DNA from: a virus
Taxonomy: Duplodnaviria; Heunggongvirae; Uroviricota; Caudoviricetes
Reading direction: 5' to 3' (one strand)
Length of the DNA stretch: 52,488 nt
IMG/VR virus record: IMGVR_UViG_2537561830_000002
In this document: positions 4,044 to 31,926 of the stretch, one piece after another
Layout of the letters: the number at the start of each line of letters is the position of its first letter
Numbering within the stretch: position 1 is the stretch's first letter
Translations under genes and position numbers: made by a program
Notes under the pieces: model-generated
Seen by the model: the letters and a program-made list of their open reading frames with translations, nothing else
Told to the model about the DNA's origin: nothing
Database searches by the model: none

Positions 4044-4170
4044 TTTGTTCTCCACGTATATGCGCTGCACCGCGCTGAATTTTGGTTAAAGAAAACCCTC
4101 GCCATCAGGCGATTATTGAGTTAATTACGTTTCCATAAATGCCCCCGCAGGGGCATTTGCAGTAATGAAA

Positions 4171-4995
4171 TCAGGCGGTGAAAGTACCAATAAAGGTTTC
4201 TACTTTGCTGTCTTTGAATTTTTCAACAAGCAGATTACGAAATTCGTTAGCCATTTCTTCCTGTACTGCTTCCAGCTGAATAATGCGCAGAACCAGTACA
4301 GGGCGATCACCAGTGATAATGCTGAGGCGTAATTTAAACGGACGTTCTTTCAGGCCTTCAAACGGAACGCATTTAAACTCAAATGCTACTGGCATAATGT
4401 CTTTAGTTTTCGCTTCGACAGACTCCATCAGAGAGCGTTTGCCGCTGAAGTCATTGTCTTCAAAATCAGCGGTCTGGTTTGCTTCAATCGTGATTTTACG
4501 GACCGCCGCAGCCGCTTTTGTTGCCTGAATGGCGTCACCATTAGCATCAAAGCCCACAAGGTAGTCGGCCCAGTCTTCAATCCATTCTGCCAGTGACTTC
4601 TGGGAGTTACGCTCGCCGTTAACAGACAACAGGGCAGAGAACGGTGCTGTCTTTTTCAGTTTGAGAGTGGCGGTGTTATCTGCGTGACCTGGTTCATCAA
4701 TAGTACCCAGGTTAAGCACACTGACGGCTCGCATATTATCAGCATCGATAAAGCAGCGGGTGCCTTCATCTGCAAGATCTTTAGAATAACGGGTAAAGTC
4801 ATCGATGCTGGCAGTGGAAAGCGCACCACGGAAACGGAAGCGATTTAAATTAAATTTTTCCAGATCATGAATGCGGAAATTCTCAGGCAATGCCACAGCA
4901 TCGGCACCAATCTTACTGATAATTTCATTAACACCCTGAGCAGAAATAAGGGCATGGATTTGATTAATTGCGGTTGCGTCTAAGTTCTGAGACAT
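4171..4995 (-). CDS. YfdQ-like protein (DUF2303 family, 274 aa)
   Basis: [22 protein letters not shown]...; recalled as the CPS-53 YfdQ family; GAGGA RBS. Confidence 0.75.
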
Positions 4996-5060
4996 AATAA
5001 GTCCTCACTATATAAAGATATTCAGTGATGAGATAAATAATCAGTTAATTAAAAACGATA

Positions 5061-5423
5061 TTAACGACCTGCTGCGCGGAGTTTTCCGTCAGGTTCACCG
5101 GCAAGAGTCAGTAACTGTCCCTGGTCTTCCTGCAGAATAGTCAGGCGACCACCGCGATTGACATACATCGGCGTTTCGGTGGTGTCTTCTTCGGAAATTT
5201 TCCCGCGGTTAGTCGGGCGAACATATGAGAGTTTGTGTTTGATTTTCACACGGTTCTCATCAAATGGTTCGATTTCCAGGTTGAGTGAGACCTTACCTTT
5301 GGTTTTCGTGTTCATCACACCGGAAGCGACTTCACTGAGAACTGCGCCGATTTTGGTTTCAAATACGCCGCCGTCCAGCTCCCCGATAAATGCCTGCACA
5401 TCAGTACTGCGTTCGCTAGCCAT
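5061..5423 (-). CDS. YfdP-like protein (120 aa)
   Basis: Internal Met MASERSTDVQAFIGELDGGVFETKIG with GAGGAG RBS; the longer 197-aa ORF has a low-complexity N-terminal extension and is rejected. Confidence 0.7.
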   Translation of the reverse strand: MASERSTDVQAFIGELDGGVFETKIGAVLSEVASGVMNTKTKGKVSLNLEIEPFDENRVKIKHKLSYVRPTNRGKISEEDTTETPMYVNRGGRLTILQEDQGQLLTLAGEPDGKLRAAGR

Positions 5424-6029
5424 TTTGCTGCTCCTCATCATATCGACCCTGTAAGGTCGGTTAGTTTCTCCACAAAACAGAGAAGAACACCTGCGGTGGC
5501 AGCCGCCCGGATGGATTGGGTTATGAGCCCGTCGTCCGGTGATGCTCTTCTCTGTTTTGTAAAAAGAGCGGTACCAGCCGGAAGCAAGGGTACAAACTGG
5601 TACCGCCAAAGCAGTGGCTGTTGTGGTGGGGTTGTCACTCAGGCGTATGGTCAACCTGACAATCCGGTGTCCTCAACGGGGAAAGAGTAACCCCGCCATA
5701 CTTACCGCCGCGCCATTTCGCGGATTACCACAACGCTGAGAGCACTTAGCCAGTTACGGCACCACACTTTGTCGCGGCTCCATAAATGCCCTCATCGTTG
5801 CACCCTGGTCTCTTCCCAGGCGTCAAACCGAATCGCCACGCTGGTTAGGCGTCTTATCAGCATCATCATTGACTTGCACATTCCGGCTACCTGGTTTGTT
5901 TGCCCGAGCAAGGAGTGGATTGTCCCCTTTAACGTCCCCAGACCGCTAACGACGCATGTGCCATACGCCGTGTTACAACCAAATTTTGTTAGTACCTTGT
6001 TTGTTTGTCTGGAAAGAAAGATAAAATGA

Positions 6030-6080
6030 AGTTGCGCATTATGCAAGTGTTTTTGTTGCGAGATATGCAATTTAAAGGGT
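6030..6080 (-). promoter_or_regulatory. candidate oL/pL operator-promoter region
   Basis: Imperfect palindromes of the TTGCG...GCAA type, similar to those between the repressor and cro genes; position left of the repressor terminator. Confidence 0.35.
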
Positions 6081-6105
6081 AATGAAAAGCCACCTTTGGG
6101 TGGCT
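6081..6105 (-). terminator. rho-independent terminator after the repressor gene
   Basis: GC stem agccacc/ggtggct with a 3-nt loop, followed on the minus strand by TTTTCATT. Confidence 0.5.
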
Positions 6106-6125
6106 AATTGATGAGGAGGTAAGGG

Positions 6126-6818
6126 TTAATTGTGTCGCTTAAGGGTTTGTGACTGGCTGATTAAGACCTTTCCAAAGACCATAAACCGGTGTTCATTTTC
6201 GCTGGTAATTCCCCATTCACGGTAAATCTGGTTATCAGAAATCACCAGTAGTTTGTCAGGTATCATTTGCAGTCGTTTGACATAAATTTTATCATCAAAA
6301 CCAAATACATAGATACCATCTCCATCAAACTGATTGATACTGACATCAACGAAGATGAGATCTCCTGGCTCAATGGTTGGACACATACTGTCCCCACGAA
6401 CGTTGATAACTTTAATGTGATTGGCTGGCCGTCCGCCAAACATCGATACAGCATTATCAGTTCTGTATTCAATGGCATGAATCACATCAATGACATCACC
6501 GCCCTGGATAAGGCCATTTCCCGCACTGGCACTGACATCCAGCATTTCAATACGGAATACATCCTTCACCTGCGCAACATCCTCACTAATACTGTTTTTA
6601 CATACAGTATTACTTTTGACGTCTGAGGTAAAGAGATCAGCAATATCAACACCTAAGCTCCTGGCAATATTACTCAGGGCTTGTTCAGTGAATTGTTTCT
6701 GCTTACCTGTTTCCAGGCGTGAGATATTCGCCGCATCCACTCCTATTGCTTCAGCGAGATCGGCGATTTTCATGTTCTTCGCCTGGCGAAGTTGTCTGAC
6801 TCGGTTTCCTATGTTCAT
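6126..6818 (-). CDS. CI-type repressor (HTH plus S24 LexA-like peptidase domain)
   Basis: N-terminal HTH (KIADLAEAIGVDAANISRLETGK), Ala-Gly cleavage site, GDSM serine and downstream lysine of the autocleavage dyad. Confidence 0.9.
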   Translation of the reverse strand: MNIGNRVRQLRQAKNMKIADLAEAIGVDAANISRLETGKQKQFTEQALSNIARSLGVDIADLFTSDVKSNTVCKNSISEDVAQVKDVFRIEMLDVSASAGNGLIQGGDVIDVIHAIEYRTDNAVSMFGGRPANHIKVINVRGDSMCPTIEPGDLIFVDVSINQFDGDGIYVFGFDDKIYVKRLQMIPDKLLVISDNQIYREWGITSENEHRFMVFGKVLISQSQTLKRHN

Positions 6819-6915
6819 GCGTTTATTACATTTCTTTAATGCGCGTTAAGCAAATCAACTTGCGCAAAATATTTGCGTGAAATAATATGCTCATCACGCA
6901 ATATGTGGAGGTCAT
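6819..6915. promoter_or_regulatory. oR / pR-pRM divergent operator-promoter region
   Basis: Intergenic region between divergent repressor and cro genes containing near-palindrome CGCAAAATATTTGCG and a related repeat. Confidence 0.5.
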
Positions 6916-7176
6916 ATGCAATCACCATTACGGAATGTGCGTAAGGCGCACGGATTTACTTTGCAGCATGTTGCTGCTGGCGTTCAGGTCAATCCAGCGA
7001 CGCTGAGTCGTATTGAAAGACTGGAACAAATTCCATCTATCGATCTTGCAGAACGTCTGGCCAATTTTTTTAAGGGTGAAATCAGCGAAATGCAGATTCT
7101 TTATCCGGCACGTTTTCAATCTAGCCAAAACCAGAATGGGTTTAAACCACAGGAACAGGAGGTAAGCCGTGGGTAA
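6916..7176 (+). CDS. Cro-like HTH regulator (86 aa)
   Basis: HTH GFTLQHVAAGVQVNPATLSRIER; divergent from repressor; GGAGG RBS. Confidence 0.8.
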   Translation: MQSPLRNVRKAHGFTLQHVAAGVQVNPATLSRIERLEQIPSIDLAERLANFFKGEISEMQILYPARFQSSQNQNGFKPQEQEVSRG

Positions 7177-30536: not shown

Positions 30537-30553
30537 TTAATAAAATTCATTAC

Positions 30554-30582
30554 AAGGCCACCTTCTAATAGGTGGCTTTTTA
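30554..30582 (+). terminator. rho-independent terminator after the moron
   Basis: aaggccacc-ttctaata-ggtggcttttt. Confidence 0.6.
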
Positions 30583-30597
30583 ATTTTCGGAGTATAT

Positions 30598-31926
30598 ATG
30601 ACGTGGAAAGACAGACTTCAGGACGCGTCATTTCGCGGTGTGCCGTTTAAGGTTGAAGAAGAAAGTGCGGGAACCGGTCGTCGTGTGGAAACGCACGAAT
30701 ACCCAAACCGCGACAAACCCTATACCGAAGACCTGGGGAAAATCACTTTCCGCCCGTCCATCACGGCTTATGTGGTGGGAGATGACTGCTTTGACCAGCG
30801 CGATCGCCTGATTGACGCGCTGAATAAACCCGGTCCCGGCACGCTTGTCCATCCGACTTACGGTGAGCTGAAAGTCTGTGTTGACGGAGAGGTTCGGGTC
30901 AGCACATCGAAGAGTGAAGGGCGTATTGTCCGCTTTGACCTGAAGTTTGTCGAAGCGGGAGAACTCTCTTACCCCACATCAGGTGCGGCGACGGCGCAGA
31001 CGCTGATGTCATCCTGTTCTGCACTGGATGACTGCATCAGTGACAGCTTCAGCGGTTTCAGTATCGATGGCGTGGCGGATTTTGTGCAGAACGACGTCGT
31101 CGGTAATGCCAGCACAATGCTTGGGTATGTTTCTGATGCGATGAAAGTGGTGGATTCTGCCGTATCGGATGCTGCCAAGCTGTTGCAGGGGGATATCTCG
31201 GTACTTCTGCCGCCACCATCGTCAGGCAAAAATTTCGTTGAGCAGGTGCAGAAAATGTGGCGTACCGGGAAACGCCTTTATGGTAACGCCAGCGACCTGG
31301 TCACCATGATCAAAACGCTTTCCGGTGTCAGCCTCGGCAGCGATCTGCAACCGCGCGGCGTCTGGAAAACGGACAGTAAAACCACCGCCACGGCGACGCA
31401 GCAGCGTAATGTGGTTGCCAGCACCCTTCGTACGACCGCAATCAGTGAAGCGGCGTATGCCGTCACCCGATTGCCTGCGCCAACAACTTCCGCGGTGATG
31501 CAGAATTCCGCAGTGGGGCAGGCAACAACACCTGCGCAGAGCACTGGCTGGCCTTCCGTCACGCATCCGGCACTGAACAATGCACCGGCGGTGAAAAACA
31601 CGGTTGATCTGCCGACGTGGGAAGAACTGACTGACATTCGCGACACACTGAATACGGCAATTGATAAGGAGTTGTCCCGTACAACCAGTGATGCGCTGTT
31701 TCTGGCGCTGCGCCGGGTGAAAGCAGATCTGAATGCGGATATCAACACGCGCCTTGAACAGTCTGCACGGATCATTCAGCGCACACCGGATGAGGTTTTA
31801 CCCGCGCTGGTGCTGGCGGCGACCTGGTTTGATAACGCGGCGCGTGACGCGGACATTATCCGGCGTAATGCCATTACGCATCCCGGCTTTGTGCCGGTGA
31901 TCCCTCTGAAGGTGCCAGTGCAATGA
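30598..31926 (+). CDS. DNA circulation protein (Mu gpN-like)
   Basis: N-terminus WKDRLQDASFRGVPFKVEEE...THEYPNRDKPYTEDLG typical of the family. Confidence 0.85.
   Translation: MTWKDRLQDASFRGVPFKVEEESAGTGRRVETHEYPNRDKPYTEDLGKITFRPSITAYVVGDDCFDQRDRLIDALNKPGPGTLVHPTYGELKVCVDGEVRVSTSKSEGRIVRFDLKFVEAGELSYPTSGAATAQTLMSSCSALDDCISDSFSGFSIDGVADFVQNDVVGNASTMLGYVSDAMKVVDSAVSDAAKLLQGDISVLLPPPSSGKNFVEQVQKMWRTGKRLYGNASDLVTMIKTLSGVSLGSDLQPRGVWKTDSKTTATATQQRNVVASTLRTTAISEAAYAVTRLPAPTTSAVMQNSAVGQATTPAQSTGWPSVTHPALNNAPAVKNTVDLPTWEELTDIRDTLNTAIDKELSRTTSDALFLALRRVKADLNADINTRLEQSARIIQRTPDEVLPALVLAATWFDNAARDADIIRRNAITHPGFVPVIPLKVPVQ

What the first reader, a model, noticed from the sequence alone, without database searches (positions are those of the whole stretch)
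5424..6125. 700-bp gene-free, highly structured leader between the early-left genes and the repressor, with no N-like gene
Seen: no credible ORF in this stretch. A long imperfect stem (5472-5491 pairing with 5538-5560, 15 bp perfect) encloses a 46-nt loop and is immediately followed by a second perfect 9-bp hairpin (5569-5577 with 5597-5605). Operator-like palindromes and the repressor terminator lie at 6030-6105. No Arg-rich N-type antiterminator gene is present on either side of the immunity region. Established: HK022 uses cis-acting put RNAs (paired stem-loops just downstream of pL/pR) instead of N. Inference: a put-like RNA antitermination element or a prophage small RNA may be encoded here.
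Basis: partly seen in the sequence, partly recalled or inferred. Interest (0 to 1): 0.45.

Follow-up and report, generated by a model that had tools for sequence, protein, structure and literature searches.

The report
Modular structured RNA leader, DicF-type
The gene-free stretch is the untranslated start of the prophage's early-left transcript, built from conserved, swappable folded-RNA modules homologous to the E. coli dicF small-RNA locus, which suggests that this classic small RNA is only the tail of a larger undescribed phage RNA cassette.

Summary
Window 5424-6125 has no gene with a coding signature, both stems are exactly where stated, and no N-like gene is present.

The put-like reading is not supported: there is no sequence or structural similarity to HK022 putL/putR, and only one copy.

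Read on the minus (pL-sense) strand, the gap is a chain of conserved RNA modules:
- predicted pL/OL (6018-6070)
- "module c" (5804-5973)
- stem-loop S5 (5731-5800)
- "E107", a 118-nt five-helix domain with a possible pseudoknot (5619-5736)
- a GGCGG...CCGC hairpin plus U-run (5560-5607)
- a 20-25-bp stem (5472-5560)

Compensatory base changes support module c, E107 and the long stem across Escherichia, Citrobacter, Salmonella, Erwinia, Serratia and P1-like phages. None is in Rfam.

In prophage Qin, E107 lies immediately 5' of DicF. In phage P1 it is the annotated "dicF-like region" behind Pban. In other phages tRNA-Arg or other folded RNAs fill the E107 slot, with the same downstream hairpin.

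Best reading: a processed noncoding cassette that yields a stable E107 RNA and a DicF-class terminator small RNA, and that gates the early-left genes. The function of E107 and module c is unknown.

The parts
6126..6818 (-). cI-type (S24/LexA-family) repressor gene; context, marks the immunity region
   Evidence: PHROG phrog_4/phrog_6201 transcriptional repressor, E = 2e-62
6078..6105 (-). intrinsic terminator of the repressor gene
   Evidence: terminator scan: 7-bp stem AGCCACC/GGTGGCT plus T-run
6018..6070 (-). OL operators (TTGC-N7-GCAA at 6056-6070 and 6032-6046) and predicted pL (-35 TTGCAT 6042-6047, 17-nt spacer, -10 TATCTT 6018-6023; start about 6008-6012)
   Evidence: read from the sequence and located by script. 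The promoter is predicted only; it falls below the threshold of the consensus scan
5804..5973 (-). module c: conserved structured leader RNA. Helices: H1 5949-5971; S2 enclosing a variable hairpin; S3 5838-5852; S4 5804-5820. Invariant GGUAGCCGGAAUGUGCAAG at 5873-5891
   Evidence: homologues in P1/D6, Uetakevirus phages, mEp390 and Citrobacter. 97.1% of cells paired, 9 of 23 pairs with compensatory change, slid controls 31-47%. Invariant G.U pairs are valid only on the minus strand
5731..5800 (-). S5 stem-loop (5' strand 5785-5800, 3' strand 5731-5747) enclosing a variable insert; joins module c to the cargo slot
   Evidence: 17-bp duplex, -22.6 kcal/mol in the window. Many different but mutually complementary strand pairs occur in other cassettes, including Qin AAGCGCACGG/CCGUGCGCUU
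5619..5736 (-). E107: 118-nt conserved structured RNA domain. Outer stem 5727-5734/5620-5627; helices Pa, Pc, Pd; Pb 5696-5701/5645-5650 crosses Pd (possible pseudoknot)
   Evidence: covariance model hit of 137 bits, E = 3e-41, the only copy in the window. 94.9% of cells paired, 16 of 33 pairs with compensatory change, slid controls 33-53%. Homologous to Qin just 5' of DicF and to the P1 'dicF-like region'
5608..5619 (-). single-stranded linker AGCCACUGCUUU between E107 and the hairpin; candidate RNase E site / 5' end of the small RNA
   Evidence: position equivalent to the RNase E-generated 5' end region of DicF in Qin (PMC5069750). Inference only
5560..5607 (-). T1: hairpin GGCGGUACCAG-loop(19 nt)-CUGGUACCGCU followed by CUUUUU; intrinsic terminator and body of a DicF-class small RNA allele
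   Evidence: -22 kcal/mol. Same place and same GGCGG...CCGCC-U5 frame as DicF. 64 of 70 distinct E107 contexts have such a hairpin plus T-run, versus 30 of 300 random windows
5472..5560 (-). long stem (20-25 bp, 15 bp perfect) with a structured apical part; candidate RNase III site separating the noncoding part from the mRNA
   Evidence: Across 11 sequences from 6 genera, 96.4% of cells paired in the 20-bp helix, 3 compensatory pairs, and G.U pairs valid only on the minus strand
5421..5471 (-). conserved GGAGAAAC, small hairpin 5444-5459, Shine-Dalgarno GAGGAG and ATG (5423) of the first early-left gene
   Evidence: sequence and coordinates; conserved in e14 and Citrobacter
5061..5423 (-). first early-left protein gene (120 aa, phrog_204, unknown function); context
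   Evidence: PHROG E = 1e-49

Best explanation
The gap is the roughly 580-nt untranslated leader of the early-left (pL) transcript, read on the minus strand. It is one instance of a modular noncoding-RNA cassette shared by temperate phages of Enterobacterales.

Order of modules:
1. A structured leader (module c).
2. A connecting stem-loop (S5).
3. A clamp stem GUUGUGG/CCACAAC holding a 'cargo' RNA, here the 118-nt domain E107.
4. A short linker.
5. A GGCGG...CCGCC hairpin with a U-run (T1).
6. A long double-stranded stem just before the first protein gene.

The dicF locus of prophage Qin is the same cassette, with DicF as its T1 allele.

Proposed working (inferred): after repressor loss, pL transcribes the leader. 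Part of the polymerases stop at T1. RNase E cuts in the linker, and RNase III cuts in the long stem of read-through transcripts. This releases a stable E107 RNA and a hairpin small RNA of about 55-60 nt, of the DicF (Hfq-binding) class but with a different targeting sequence. Read-through transcripts carry the early-left genes, so T1 and the long stem also set how much of those genes is made.

Shown here: homology, architecture, strand, and structure conservation. Inferred: processing, release, trans action, and gating.
For: Homology to the dicF locus:
- Window 5612-5734 matches Qin at 89% identity, E = 5e-41, immediately 5' of the Rfam DicF hit (L002 4924-4975, 72.5 bits).
- Phage P1 annotates the same element as 'dicF-like region' about 35 nt downstream of the C1-controlled Pban.

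Structure conserved on the minus strand:
- E107: 16 of 33 pairs compensatory.
- Module c: 9 of 23 pairs compensatory.
- Long stem: 96% of cells paired, with compensatory and G.U pairs.
- S5: many covarying strand pairs.

Hairpin after E107:
- A hairpin plus U-run follows E107 in 64 of 70 distinct contexts versus 10% of random windows, with 25 different hairpin sequences.
- At least 10 cassette alleles share the UUGGCGG...CCGCC-U5 frame with DicF.

Cargo swapping:
- In phiV10, L003 and SPN1S, a tRNA-Arg starts exactly where the E107 clamp stem starts and is followed by the same kind of hairpin plus CUUUUU.
- Other loci carry other folded RNAs between GUUGUGG and CCACAAC.

Published DicF biogenesis matches the anatomy: 5' end by RNase E, 3' end by termination (53 nt) or by RNase III 19 nt further on (72 nt) (PMC5069750, PMC9438474).

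No coding signature in the conserved frame.
Against: - No transcript data were available, so no RNA end, processing step or Hfq binding is shown for this allele.
- The Rfam DicF model does not hit the window even at E = 10. The small RNA here is a DicF-position analogue with a partly similar hairpin, not a DicF family member.
- Its single-stranded 5' part is only about 12 nt, which is short for a seed.
- Target prediction against ftsZ was uninformative.
- The strong conservation of E107 relative to the variable hairpin shows that E107 has a function of its own, which this model does not name.
- pL is predicted, not demonstrated.
Confidence: 0.5

Rival explanations
1. E107, possibly with module c, is a cis-acting RNA antiterminator working like HK022 put or the Bacillus EAR element. 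It would fold on the nascent pL transcript, act on the elongating RNA polymerase, and let it read through T1 and later stops. That would replace the missing N protein.
For: - The phage has no N-like gene (PMC3851460).
- E107 always lies just upstream of an intrinsic terminator that must be passed to express downstream genes.
- In P1 it sits about 35 nt after the early promoter Pban and before a strong terminator, with tRNAs and ban 0.5-2.6 kb further on.
- From my own knowledge, not tested here: ban is expressed from Pban in P1 bac lysogens without lytic functions.
Against: - No similarity to put.
- Only one copy, none after pR.
- In Qin it lies about 1 kb from the promoter, after three ORFs.
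- A tRNA can occupy the same slot in front of the same kind of terminator. This makes the terminator a property of the cassette, not of E107.
- Termination at the DicF hairpin does occur in vivo (PMC5069750).
- No convincing further intrinsic terminators lie in the early-left operon.
Confidence: 0.15
2. E107 is a sensor domain (riboswitch-like, or binding a tRNA or a protein) that decides whether T1 forms. It would tune early-left transcription to a cellular signal.
For: The arrangement is a conserved folded domain followed by terminators of variable sequence, which is typical of riboswitches. The domain may contain a pseudoknot and has invariant unpaired stretches.
Against: - No conserved alternative pairing between E107 and the terminator arms was found across alleles. 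The shared GGCGGUA word is absent from the P1 terminator.
- A tRNA replaces E107 in front of the same hairpin.
- No associated metabolic genes; contexts share no protein.
- No Rfam match.
Confidence: 0.07
3. E107 and the other cargo RNAs are stable, non-base-pairing RNAs of the kind found next to tRNA genes in phages (T4 species 1/2 RNAs, ROOL/GOLLD). They might act as decoys or tRNA mimics against host defence or RNA-repair systems. The hairpin would then be only their terminator.
For: - The cargo slot is shared with tRNA-Arg. Module c is flanked by tRNAs in 36 of 103 distinct neighbourhoods.
- E107 is much more conserved than the hairpin.
- Overexpression of the e14 'ymfH' clone triggered the retron-Sen2 toxin in a published screen (bioRxiv 10.1101/2020.06.22.160242). 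That clone is the e14 homologue of window 5434-5609 plus another cargo.
Against: - E107 is not recognised by ARAGORN or by the Rfam tRNA/YrlA/tmRNA models, even in a 146-nt search.
- No defence-related gene is linked.
- The retron result was attributed to a protein clone and was not followed up.
- Nothing is known about the stability of E107.
Confidence: 0.15
4. The region has no RNA function. It would be either a decayed small protein gene (YmfH-like or cdtI gp40-like ORFs) or a mosaic of recombination scars conserved only because the prophages are recent relatives.
For: - Annotators call hypothetical proteins here.
- PHROG families exist for two of the ORFs.
- The region is visibly mosaic.
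- 'Type G' relatives have a Shine-Dalgarno sequence plus start codon inside the hairpin loop.
Against: - Substitutions are even over codon positions, with 8-15 of 32 residues changed.
- Loops vary by lengths that are not multiples of three.
- Compensatory changes and strand-specific G.U pairs occur in four separate modules, across genera and across unrelated phage types.
- In the Erwinia relative the frame stops before the 3' arm, which is nevertheless conserved.
Confidence: 0.05

Closest known systems
dicF locus of the dicBF operon, prophage Qin of E. coli K-12 (DicF sRNA, Rfam RF00039)
   Same: - Both lie in the early-left operon under a cI/DicA-type repressor.
- Homologous E107 domain directly upstream (89% identity).
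- Then a short single strand, a GGCGG...CCGCC hairpin with U-run, a long stem, and the next protein gene.
- Published processing by RNase E and RNase III fits this anatomy.
   Different: - The hairpin/seed part is a different allele and does not match the DicF model.
- No ydfABC genes precede it here; module c does.
- The long stem is not homologous to the Qin one.
- The downstream gene is not dicB.
'dicF-like region' in the Pban leader of phage P1/P7
   Same: The same E107 domain (91-96 bits with the model), just downstream of a repressor-controlled early promoter and followed by an intrinsic terminator. P1 also carries module c, between tRNA-Ile and ban.
   Different: In P1 the two modules are 2 kb apart and in the opposite order. 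The clamp stem differs. The terminator is a short GCCCAUC/GGUGGGC hairpin. tRNA genes follow.
HK022 putL/putR RNA antiterminators
   Same: An N-less lambdoid phage with a structured RNA in the early leader upstream of terminators. Acts, or could act, in cis.
   Different: No sequence similarity. put is about 70 nt with two stem-loops and is present after both pL and pR. E107 is 118 nt with five helices, a single copy, and is interchangeable with a tRNA.
Stable RNAs embedded in phage tRNA clusters (T4 species 1 and 2 RNAs; ROOL and GOLLD RNAs). Recalled from knowledge, not tested here.
   Same: Structured noncoding RNAs of unknown function sitting beside or among tRNA genes in phage genomes, and co-transcribed with them.
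   Different: No sequence or model similarity (Rfam holds ROOL and GOLLD; no hit). These modules are much smaller and occur in enterobacterial temperate phages, in early or moron leaders.
3'UTR- or operon-derived Hfq sRNAs made by early termination plus RNase E (SroC, CpxQ type)
   Same: A small RNA formed from inside a longer transcript, ending at an intrinsic terminator (PMC9438474).
   Different: Here the small RNA is preceded by a conserved folded domain rather than by a coding region, and the seed part is hypervariable between phages.

Membership tests
HK022 put RNA | sequence similarity to putL/putR | tested here: not met
   Best local alignment of the gap to the HK022 pL-nun and cro-cII regions scores 16-21, versus 35 for putL against putR.
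HK022 put RNA | two adjacent stem-loops of about 70 nt | tested here: not met
   The conserved domain is 118 nt with five helices, one of them crossing another.
HK022 put RNA | a copy downstream of each early promoter (pL and pR) | tested here: not met
   The covariance model finds one copy only, at 5619-5736 on the minus strand. The next hit has E = 0.04 in a late region.
HK022 put RNA | cis-acting suppression of termination through RNA polymerase | not testable with these tools
   Needs reporter or in vitro transcription assays.
DicF sRNA (Rfam RF00039) | match to the DicF covariance model at or above 48 bits | tested here: not met
   No hit in the window at gathering score or at E up to 10. 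The positive control in Qin scores 72.5 bits.
DicF sRNA (Rfam RF00039) | intrinsic-terminator hairpin plus U-run placed just 3' of the E107 domain in an early-left operon | tested here: met
DicF sRNA (Rfam RF00039) | base pairing with ftsZ mRNA, Hfq binding, RNase E/III processing | tested here: inconclusive
   RNAduplex against the ftsZ leader does not separate even genuine DicF from shuffles. Hfq binding and processing cannot be tested here.
E107 domain ('dicF-like region' of P1, region 5' of dicF in Qin) | match to a covariance model built from 40 homologues, with conserved helices | tested here: met
   137.3 bits, E = 3e-41. The window sequence was itself among the 40 sequences the model was built from, so this score is partly by construction; the independent evidence is the 89% identity to Qin and the conserved helices, with 94-95% of cells paired and 8-16 compensatory pairs.
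lambda N / nut antitermination | small Arg-rich N-type protein next to pL | tested here: not met
   PHROG scans of neighbouring genes and an Arg-rich-window scan of all frames find none.
lambda N / nut antitermination | boxA (CGCUCUUA / UGCUCUUUAACA) free to bind NusB/NusE | tested here: not met
   GUGCUCUC at 5739-5746 is the 3' strand of stem S5. It covaries with its 5' partner in other cassettes.
tRNA or tRNA-like RNA | recognised by ARAGORN or by the Rfam tRNA/tmRNA/YrlA models | tested here: not met
   ARAGORN finds only tRNA-Thr at 1369-1444. cmscan of 5600-5745 at E up to 10 gives no tRNA-clan hit. The only link to tRNA is positional equivalence.
riboswitch / attenuator | conserved folded domain followed by variable intrinsic terminators | tested here: met
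riboswitch / attenuator | conserved mutually exclusive pairing between sensor and terminator; a ligand | tested here: inconclusive
   By inspection, no alternative pairing is shared by all alleles. Ligand binding is not testable here.
protein-coding gene (YmfH / cdtI gp40-type ORFs) | substitutions concentrated at third codon positions; frame kept among relatives | tested here: not met
   Counts per codon position are 4-7 / 6-10 / 5-6. The frame ends early in Erwinia. Loop indels are not multiples of three.

The most novel reading that the evidence does not exclude
DicF is only the tail of a previously unrecognised modular RNA cassette system of enterobacterial temperate phages. In this system a conserved structured leader (module c), a connecting stem (S5) and a clamp stem (GUUGUGG/CCACAAC) present interchangeable cargo RNAs: tRNA-Arg, E107 and at least four other folded RNAs. 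These sit ahead of a diversifying terminator small RNA. On this reading E107 and module c are new classes of functional structured RNA with a role of their own, for example an RNA-only antiterminator, or a tRNA-slot decoy acting on host RNA-processing or defence systems, rather than passive precursor sequence.
Probability: 0.3. Interest if true: 0.8.

Novelty: new variant of a known kind. Interest (0 to 1): 0.62.

Why it matters
DicF was one of the first bacterial small RNAs described. It is treated as a 53-nt molecule cut out of a prophage operon.

This locus shows that the DicF position is the variable 3' end of a larger conserved cassette. About 1,000 of 5,426 complete E. coli genomes carry this version, and 4,770 carry at least one piece of the gap, matching one or another of its segments. 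The cassette's most conserved parts, E107 and module c, have no Rfam family, and I found no description of them as structured RNAs in the searchable literature.

If the modules are functional RNAs:
- They add two new RNA families to the best-studied bacterium.
- They give a ready explanation for how N-less lambdoid phages organise a 580-nt untranslated early leader.
- They offer a natural system of swappable RNA cargoes and seeds.

The practical point for annotation is that 'ymfH' and similar hypothetical ORFs over these modules are probably not genes.

Tried and rejected
- **Rfam.** Searches of the whole window, of 4900-7000 at E up to 10, of 5600-5745, and of 18 related loci returned nothing for any module. 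Hits were tRNAs, sok, DicF in Qin, C4, isrK and int-alpA elsewhere, plus sub-threshold STnc100 hits in P1 and D6.
- **put homology.** Rejected by alignment to HK022.
- **A second E107 copy after pR.** None found.
- **boxA-like GUGCUCUC upstream of E107.** Considered as a Nus-factor site. Rejected because it is the 3' strand of the covarying stem S5.
- **E107 as tRNA-like.** Suggested because a tRNA-Arg fills the same slot. Not supported by ARAGORN or the Rfam models.
- **Target test of the hairpin small RNA against the ftsZ leader with RNAduplex.** Uninformative, because even DicF is not separated from shuffles.
- **Small ORF (ymfH frame).** Rejected by the codon-position test.
- **Pas sRNAs of pathogenic E. 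coli.** They lie in late or structural regions, not here.
- **Literature searches for a described element upstream of dicF.** Found nothing. The P1 genome paper could not be opened.
- **Consensus promoter scan.** Does not pick up pL; pL is proposed by eye only.
- **Four genome-contig hits (L136, L138, L141, L143).** Chance or coding matches without a model hit.
Full report
**Context.** The window holds a lambdoid prophage of the SfV/mEp460/cdtI type. It is integrated next to tRNA-Thr(CGT) (1369-1444), with an integrase at 1459-2622. The immunity region has a cI-type repressor (6126-6818, minus strand), a cro-like gene (6916-7176), a cII-like gene and an O-like gene. The first early-left protein gene is 5061-5423 on the minus strand (phrog_204). 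The finding covers the gap between that gene and the repressor.

**Check of the observation.**
- A 15-bp perfect complement pairs 5472-5486 with 5546-5560, inside a 20-25-bp stem.
- A 10-bp perfect hairpin pairs 5568-5577 with 5597-5606.
- The 587 nt between the predicted transcript start and the first gene fold much better than shuffled sequence: z = -4.5 on the minus strand and -3.6 on the plus strand.
- The repressor terminator (6088-6105) and two TTGC-N7-GCAA operator-like repeats (6032-6046, 6056-6070) are present.
- Mechanical ORFs of 64-92 aa exist. None has a functional family. The only frame conserved in relatives shows no third-position bias.
- No N-like protein was found by family search or by an Arg-rich-motif scan. 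The SfIV genome paper notes that SfII, SfV and SfIV lack N (PMC3851460).

**The gap is conserved and mosaic.** Megablast finds at least 80% of the 702 bp in 999 of 5,426 complete E. coli genomes, and some piece of it in 4,770. Different segments have different relatives.
- 5434-5609 matches 'ymfH' of prophage e14.
- 5612-5734 matches prophage Qin.
- 5728-5971 matches a spot next to a tRNA-Arg in unrelated prophages.
- 5807-5984 matches P1-type phage-plasmids.
- The last 135 bp are specific to this immunity type.

**Link to dicF.** In Qin of BL21(DE3) the match lies at L002 5001-5107, directly 5' of the Rfam DicF hit at 4924-4975 and upstream of dicB. In phage P1 the same element is annotated 'dicF-like region'. 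It starts about 35 nt after the C1-controlled promoter Pban and is followed by a strong terminator, then tRNA-Asn, tRNA-Thr, tciABC, tRNA-Ile and ban. I call this element E107.

**E107 is a conserved folded RNA.**
- A pattern scan of IMG/VR gave 120 loci. A scan of one genome per species gave Escherichia, Shigella, Citrobacter, Serratia, Trabulsiella, Erwinia and Izhakiella.
- On 40 sequences, a five-helix model has 94.1% of cells paired and 8 pairs with changes on both sides. The helices are the outer clamp, Pa, Pc and Pd, with Pb crossing Pd.
- On 22 distinct sequences that include the distant genera and P1/P7, it has 94.9% paired and 16 of 33 pairs compensatory. Versions with the partner slid by 1-3 columns give 33-53% paired and at most 3 such pairs.
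- Izhakiella changes Pd from GGGUUGUCA/UGACAACCC to GGGUAACCA/UGGUUACCC.
- Pb, the pseudoknot helix, was not part of the search model. It is fully paired but nearly invariant, with only one covarying pair, so the pseudoknot is likely but not proven.
- The model finds a single copy in the window, at 5619-5736 on the minus strand (137 bits), and none near pR.

**What follows E107.** In 64 of 70 distinct contexts, a hairpin of -8 kcal/mol or better with a T-run follows, with the T-run a median 65 nt after the E107 end. The same criterion is met in 30 of 300 random windows from the same loci. There are 25 different hairpin sequences. Most share the frame UUGGCGG...CCGCC-CUUUUU, with very different interiors and 5' single strands. 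DicF is one allele. The window allele is GGCGGUACCAG-19 nt-CUGGUACCGCU-CUUUUU (5560-5607). At least eight others exist. The window allele does not match the Rfam DicF model.

**The long stem.** Directly after the U-run comes the long stem (5472-5560). Across 11 sequences from six genera, its 20-bp core is 96.4% paired, with three compensatory pairs. Several G.U pairs would be C.A mismatches on the other strand. In Qin a different long stem follows DicF at the same place: AGUGAAUUUUGUGAUG pairs with CAUCACAAAAUUCA just before dicB. Published work places an RNase III cut 19 nt after the DicF terminator and an RNase E cut at its 5' end (PMC5069750, PMC9438474). The window therefore repeats the Qin arrangement with partly non-homologous parts.

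**Module c (5804-5973).** This second conserved RNA has the invariant stretch GGUAGCCGGAAUGUGCAAG, four helices and variable hairpins between them.
- Homologues occur in P1, P7 and D6, starting right after tRNA-Ile and before ban.
- They occur in Uetakevirus phages (phiV10, SPN1S, Tyrion, PAT1, a Klebsiella phage), in the leader of a moron unit between terminase and portal.
- They occur in the pL leader of mEp390 and in Citrobacter.
- On 12 sequences, 97.1% of cells pair and 9 of 23 pairs are compensatory; slid controls give 31-47%. U.G pairs invariant in all 12 sequences fix the strand.
- Among 103 distinct neighbourhoods, 21 have a same-strand tRNA just downstream, 15 have a tRNA just upstream, 15 have E107 downstream, and 52 have other sequences.

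**The cassette.** Comparing these neighbourhoods shows a common order:
1. Module c.
2. A stem S5 (window 5785-5800 with 5731-5747; 17 bp, -22.6 kcal/mol) around a variable insert.
3. The clamp GUUGUGG...CCACAAC around a cargo.
4. A linker.
5. The GGCGG hairpin with U-run.

S5 exists in many mutually complementary versions, including AAGCGCACGG/CCGUGCGCUU in Qin. This explains the boxA-like GUGCUCUC that I first took for a Nus-factor site. The cargo can be E107, tRNA-Arg(UCU) or other folded RNAs of 64-130 nt. The tRNA-Arg occurs in phiV10, L003 and SPN1S, beginning exactly at the GUGG of the clamp. Examples of other cargoes are UGAAUGCGCAGGCUGAUGCGC..., the e14 version and the D6 version. In phiV10 the tRNA is followed by GGCGGUGAUGG...CUAUCACCGCC-CUUUUU. 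The hairpin therefore belongs to the cassette, not to E107.

**Mechanism.**
- Shown: homology to the dicF locus, the module order, selection for RNA structure on the pL-sense strand, and the interchangeability of cargo.
- Inferred: pL (predicted -35 at 6042-6047, -10 at 6018-6023) transcribes the leader after repressor loss. Some transcripts end at T1. RNase E in the linker and RNase III in the long stem release E107 and a DicF-class small RNA of about 55-60 nt. Read-through transcripts express the early-left genes.

Because a tRNA, which is a released and stable product, can sit in the E107 slot, I read E107 as a released RNA with its own, unknown, function rather than as a sensor for T1. The alternatives are kept as rivals with lower weight: a put/EAR-like antiterminator, a riboswitch-like attenuator, a decoy RNA, or no function.

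**Comparison with known systems.**
- The locus is a member of the E107/'dicF-like region' family by model score and structure. It is not a member of the Rfam DicF family.
- It is not put, not nut/N and not tRNA-like by the tests available.
- Neither E107 nor module c has an Rfam family.
- The searchable literature describes only the 53/72-nt DicF and, in the P1 record, an unexplained 'dicF-like region'.
- I cannot exclude a description in papers outside the library.

**Verdict.** The thing itself is a new variant of a known kind, the DicF-type early-operon small-RNA locus. It exposes two apparently undescribed structured RNA modules and a cargo-swapping architecture. All functional statements remain inference until transcripts are mapped.

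Noticed in passing
L004 4002-4313 (e14 'ymfH' of E. coli K-12), homologue of window 5434-5609: In a published screen, the overexpressed ymfH clone was one of the prophage 'genes' that triggered the retron-Sen2 RcaT toxin (bioRxiv 10.1101/2020.06.22.160242). This 'ORF' consists of a clamp stem with a different cargo, a T1-type hairpin and the long stem. It shows no coding signature, so the active agent might be RNA.
   Followed up: partly
L008 2590-2720 (Salmonella phage F1055); L054, L142, L152, L154, L155: In 'type G' cassettes the large loop of the terminator-like hairpin carries AGGAGG, 7-9 nt, then ATG or GTG (TTC TAC/TGC CG..). This opens a short frame that runs through the 3' arm, the U-run and the 5' arm of the long stem. 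It is unclear whether this is a real leader peptide that competes with hairpin formation.
   Followed up: partly
L142 6452-6573 (Serratia symbiotica): The interior of the long stem is present as its reverse complement, while the arms are kept. This looks like an inversion between the inverted-repeat arms.
   Followed up: no
L007 2600-2790 ('Actinobacillus phage vB_Apl-pPE4'): The small-RNA cassette (CCGCCACAAC...GGCGGGUAUCC...CCCGCCCUUUUUAAAGUGAAUUUUGUGAU) is tandemly duplicated. The 5' part of E107 is replaced. The region is otherwise E. coli Qin-like (dicA, ydaT, kil, exoVIII), which is odd for the stated host.
   Followed up: no
L156 2042-2115 (phiV10), L157 2026-2099 (SPN1S): tRNA genes (73 and 71 bits) are not annotated in the deposited phage records. 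In phiV10 a hypothetical ORF (PhiV10p04) is called on the opposite strand across the tRNA and hairpin.
   Followed up: partly
L146, L147, L151 (MAGs labelled Bacillota, Veillonella parvula, Collinsella): These contigs carry E. coli Qin-type or P1-type sequence nearly identical to E. coli records. They are probably bin contamination.
   Followed up: no
L161 (phage D6) 1424-1960, and L158/L207 (mEp390 type): Cassette parts recur in tandem. In D6, tRNA, module c, S5 and a clamp stem with another cargo follow each other. In the mEp390 type, a second S4-like hairpin (GCCGGGAAAGACCGGC) plus ACACAAC follows about 210 nt after the first. This suggests arrays of cassettes.
   Followed up: partly
window 4099-4112 (minus strand): A weak terminator-like hairpin (TCGCC-UGAU-GGCGA plus GGGTTTTCTT) lies in the short gap between the 187-aa and 274-aa early-left genes.
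   Followed up: no
window 30550-30651 (minus strand): A weak hit of the E107 model (13.3 bits, E = 0.04) shares CGCGAAAUGACGCG. It is most likely chance.
   Followed up: no
L005 3842-3961 (P1) and L161 548-668 (D6): Sub-threshold matches to the prophage sRNA family STnc100 (33-40 bits, gathering score 47) lie just upstream of tciA in the ban operon region.
   Followed up: no
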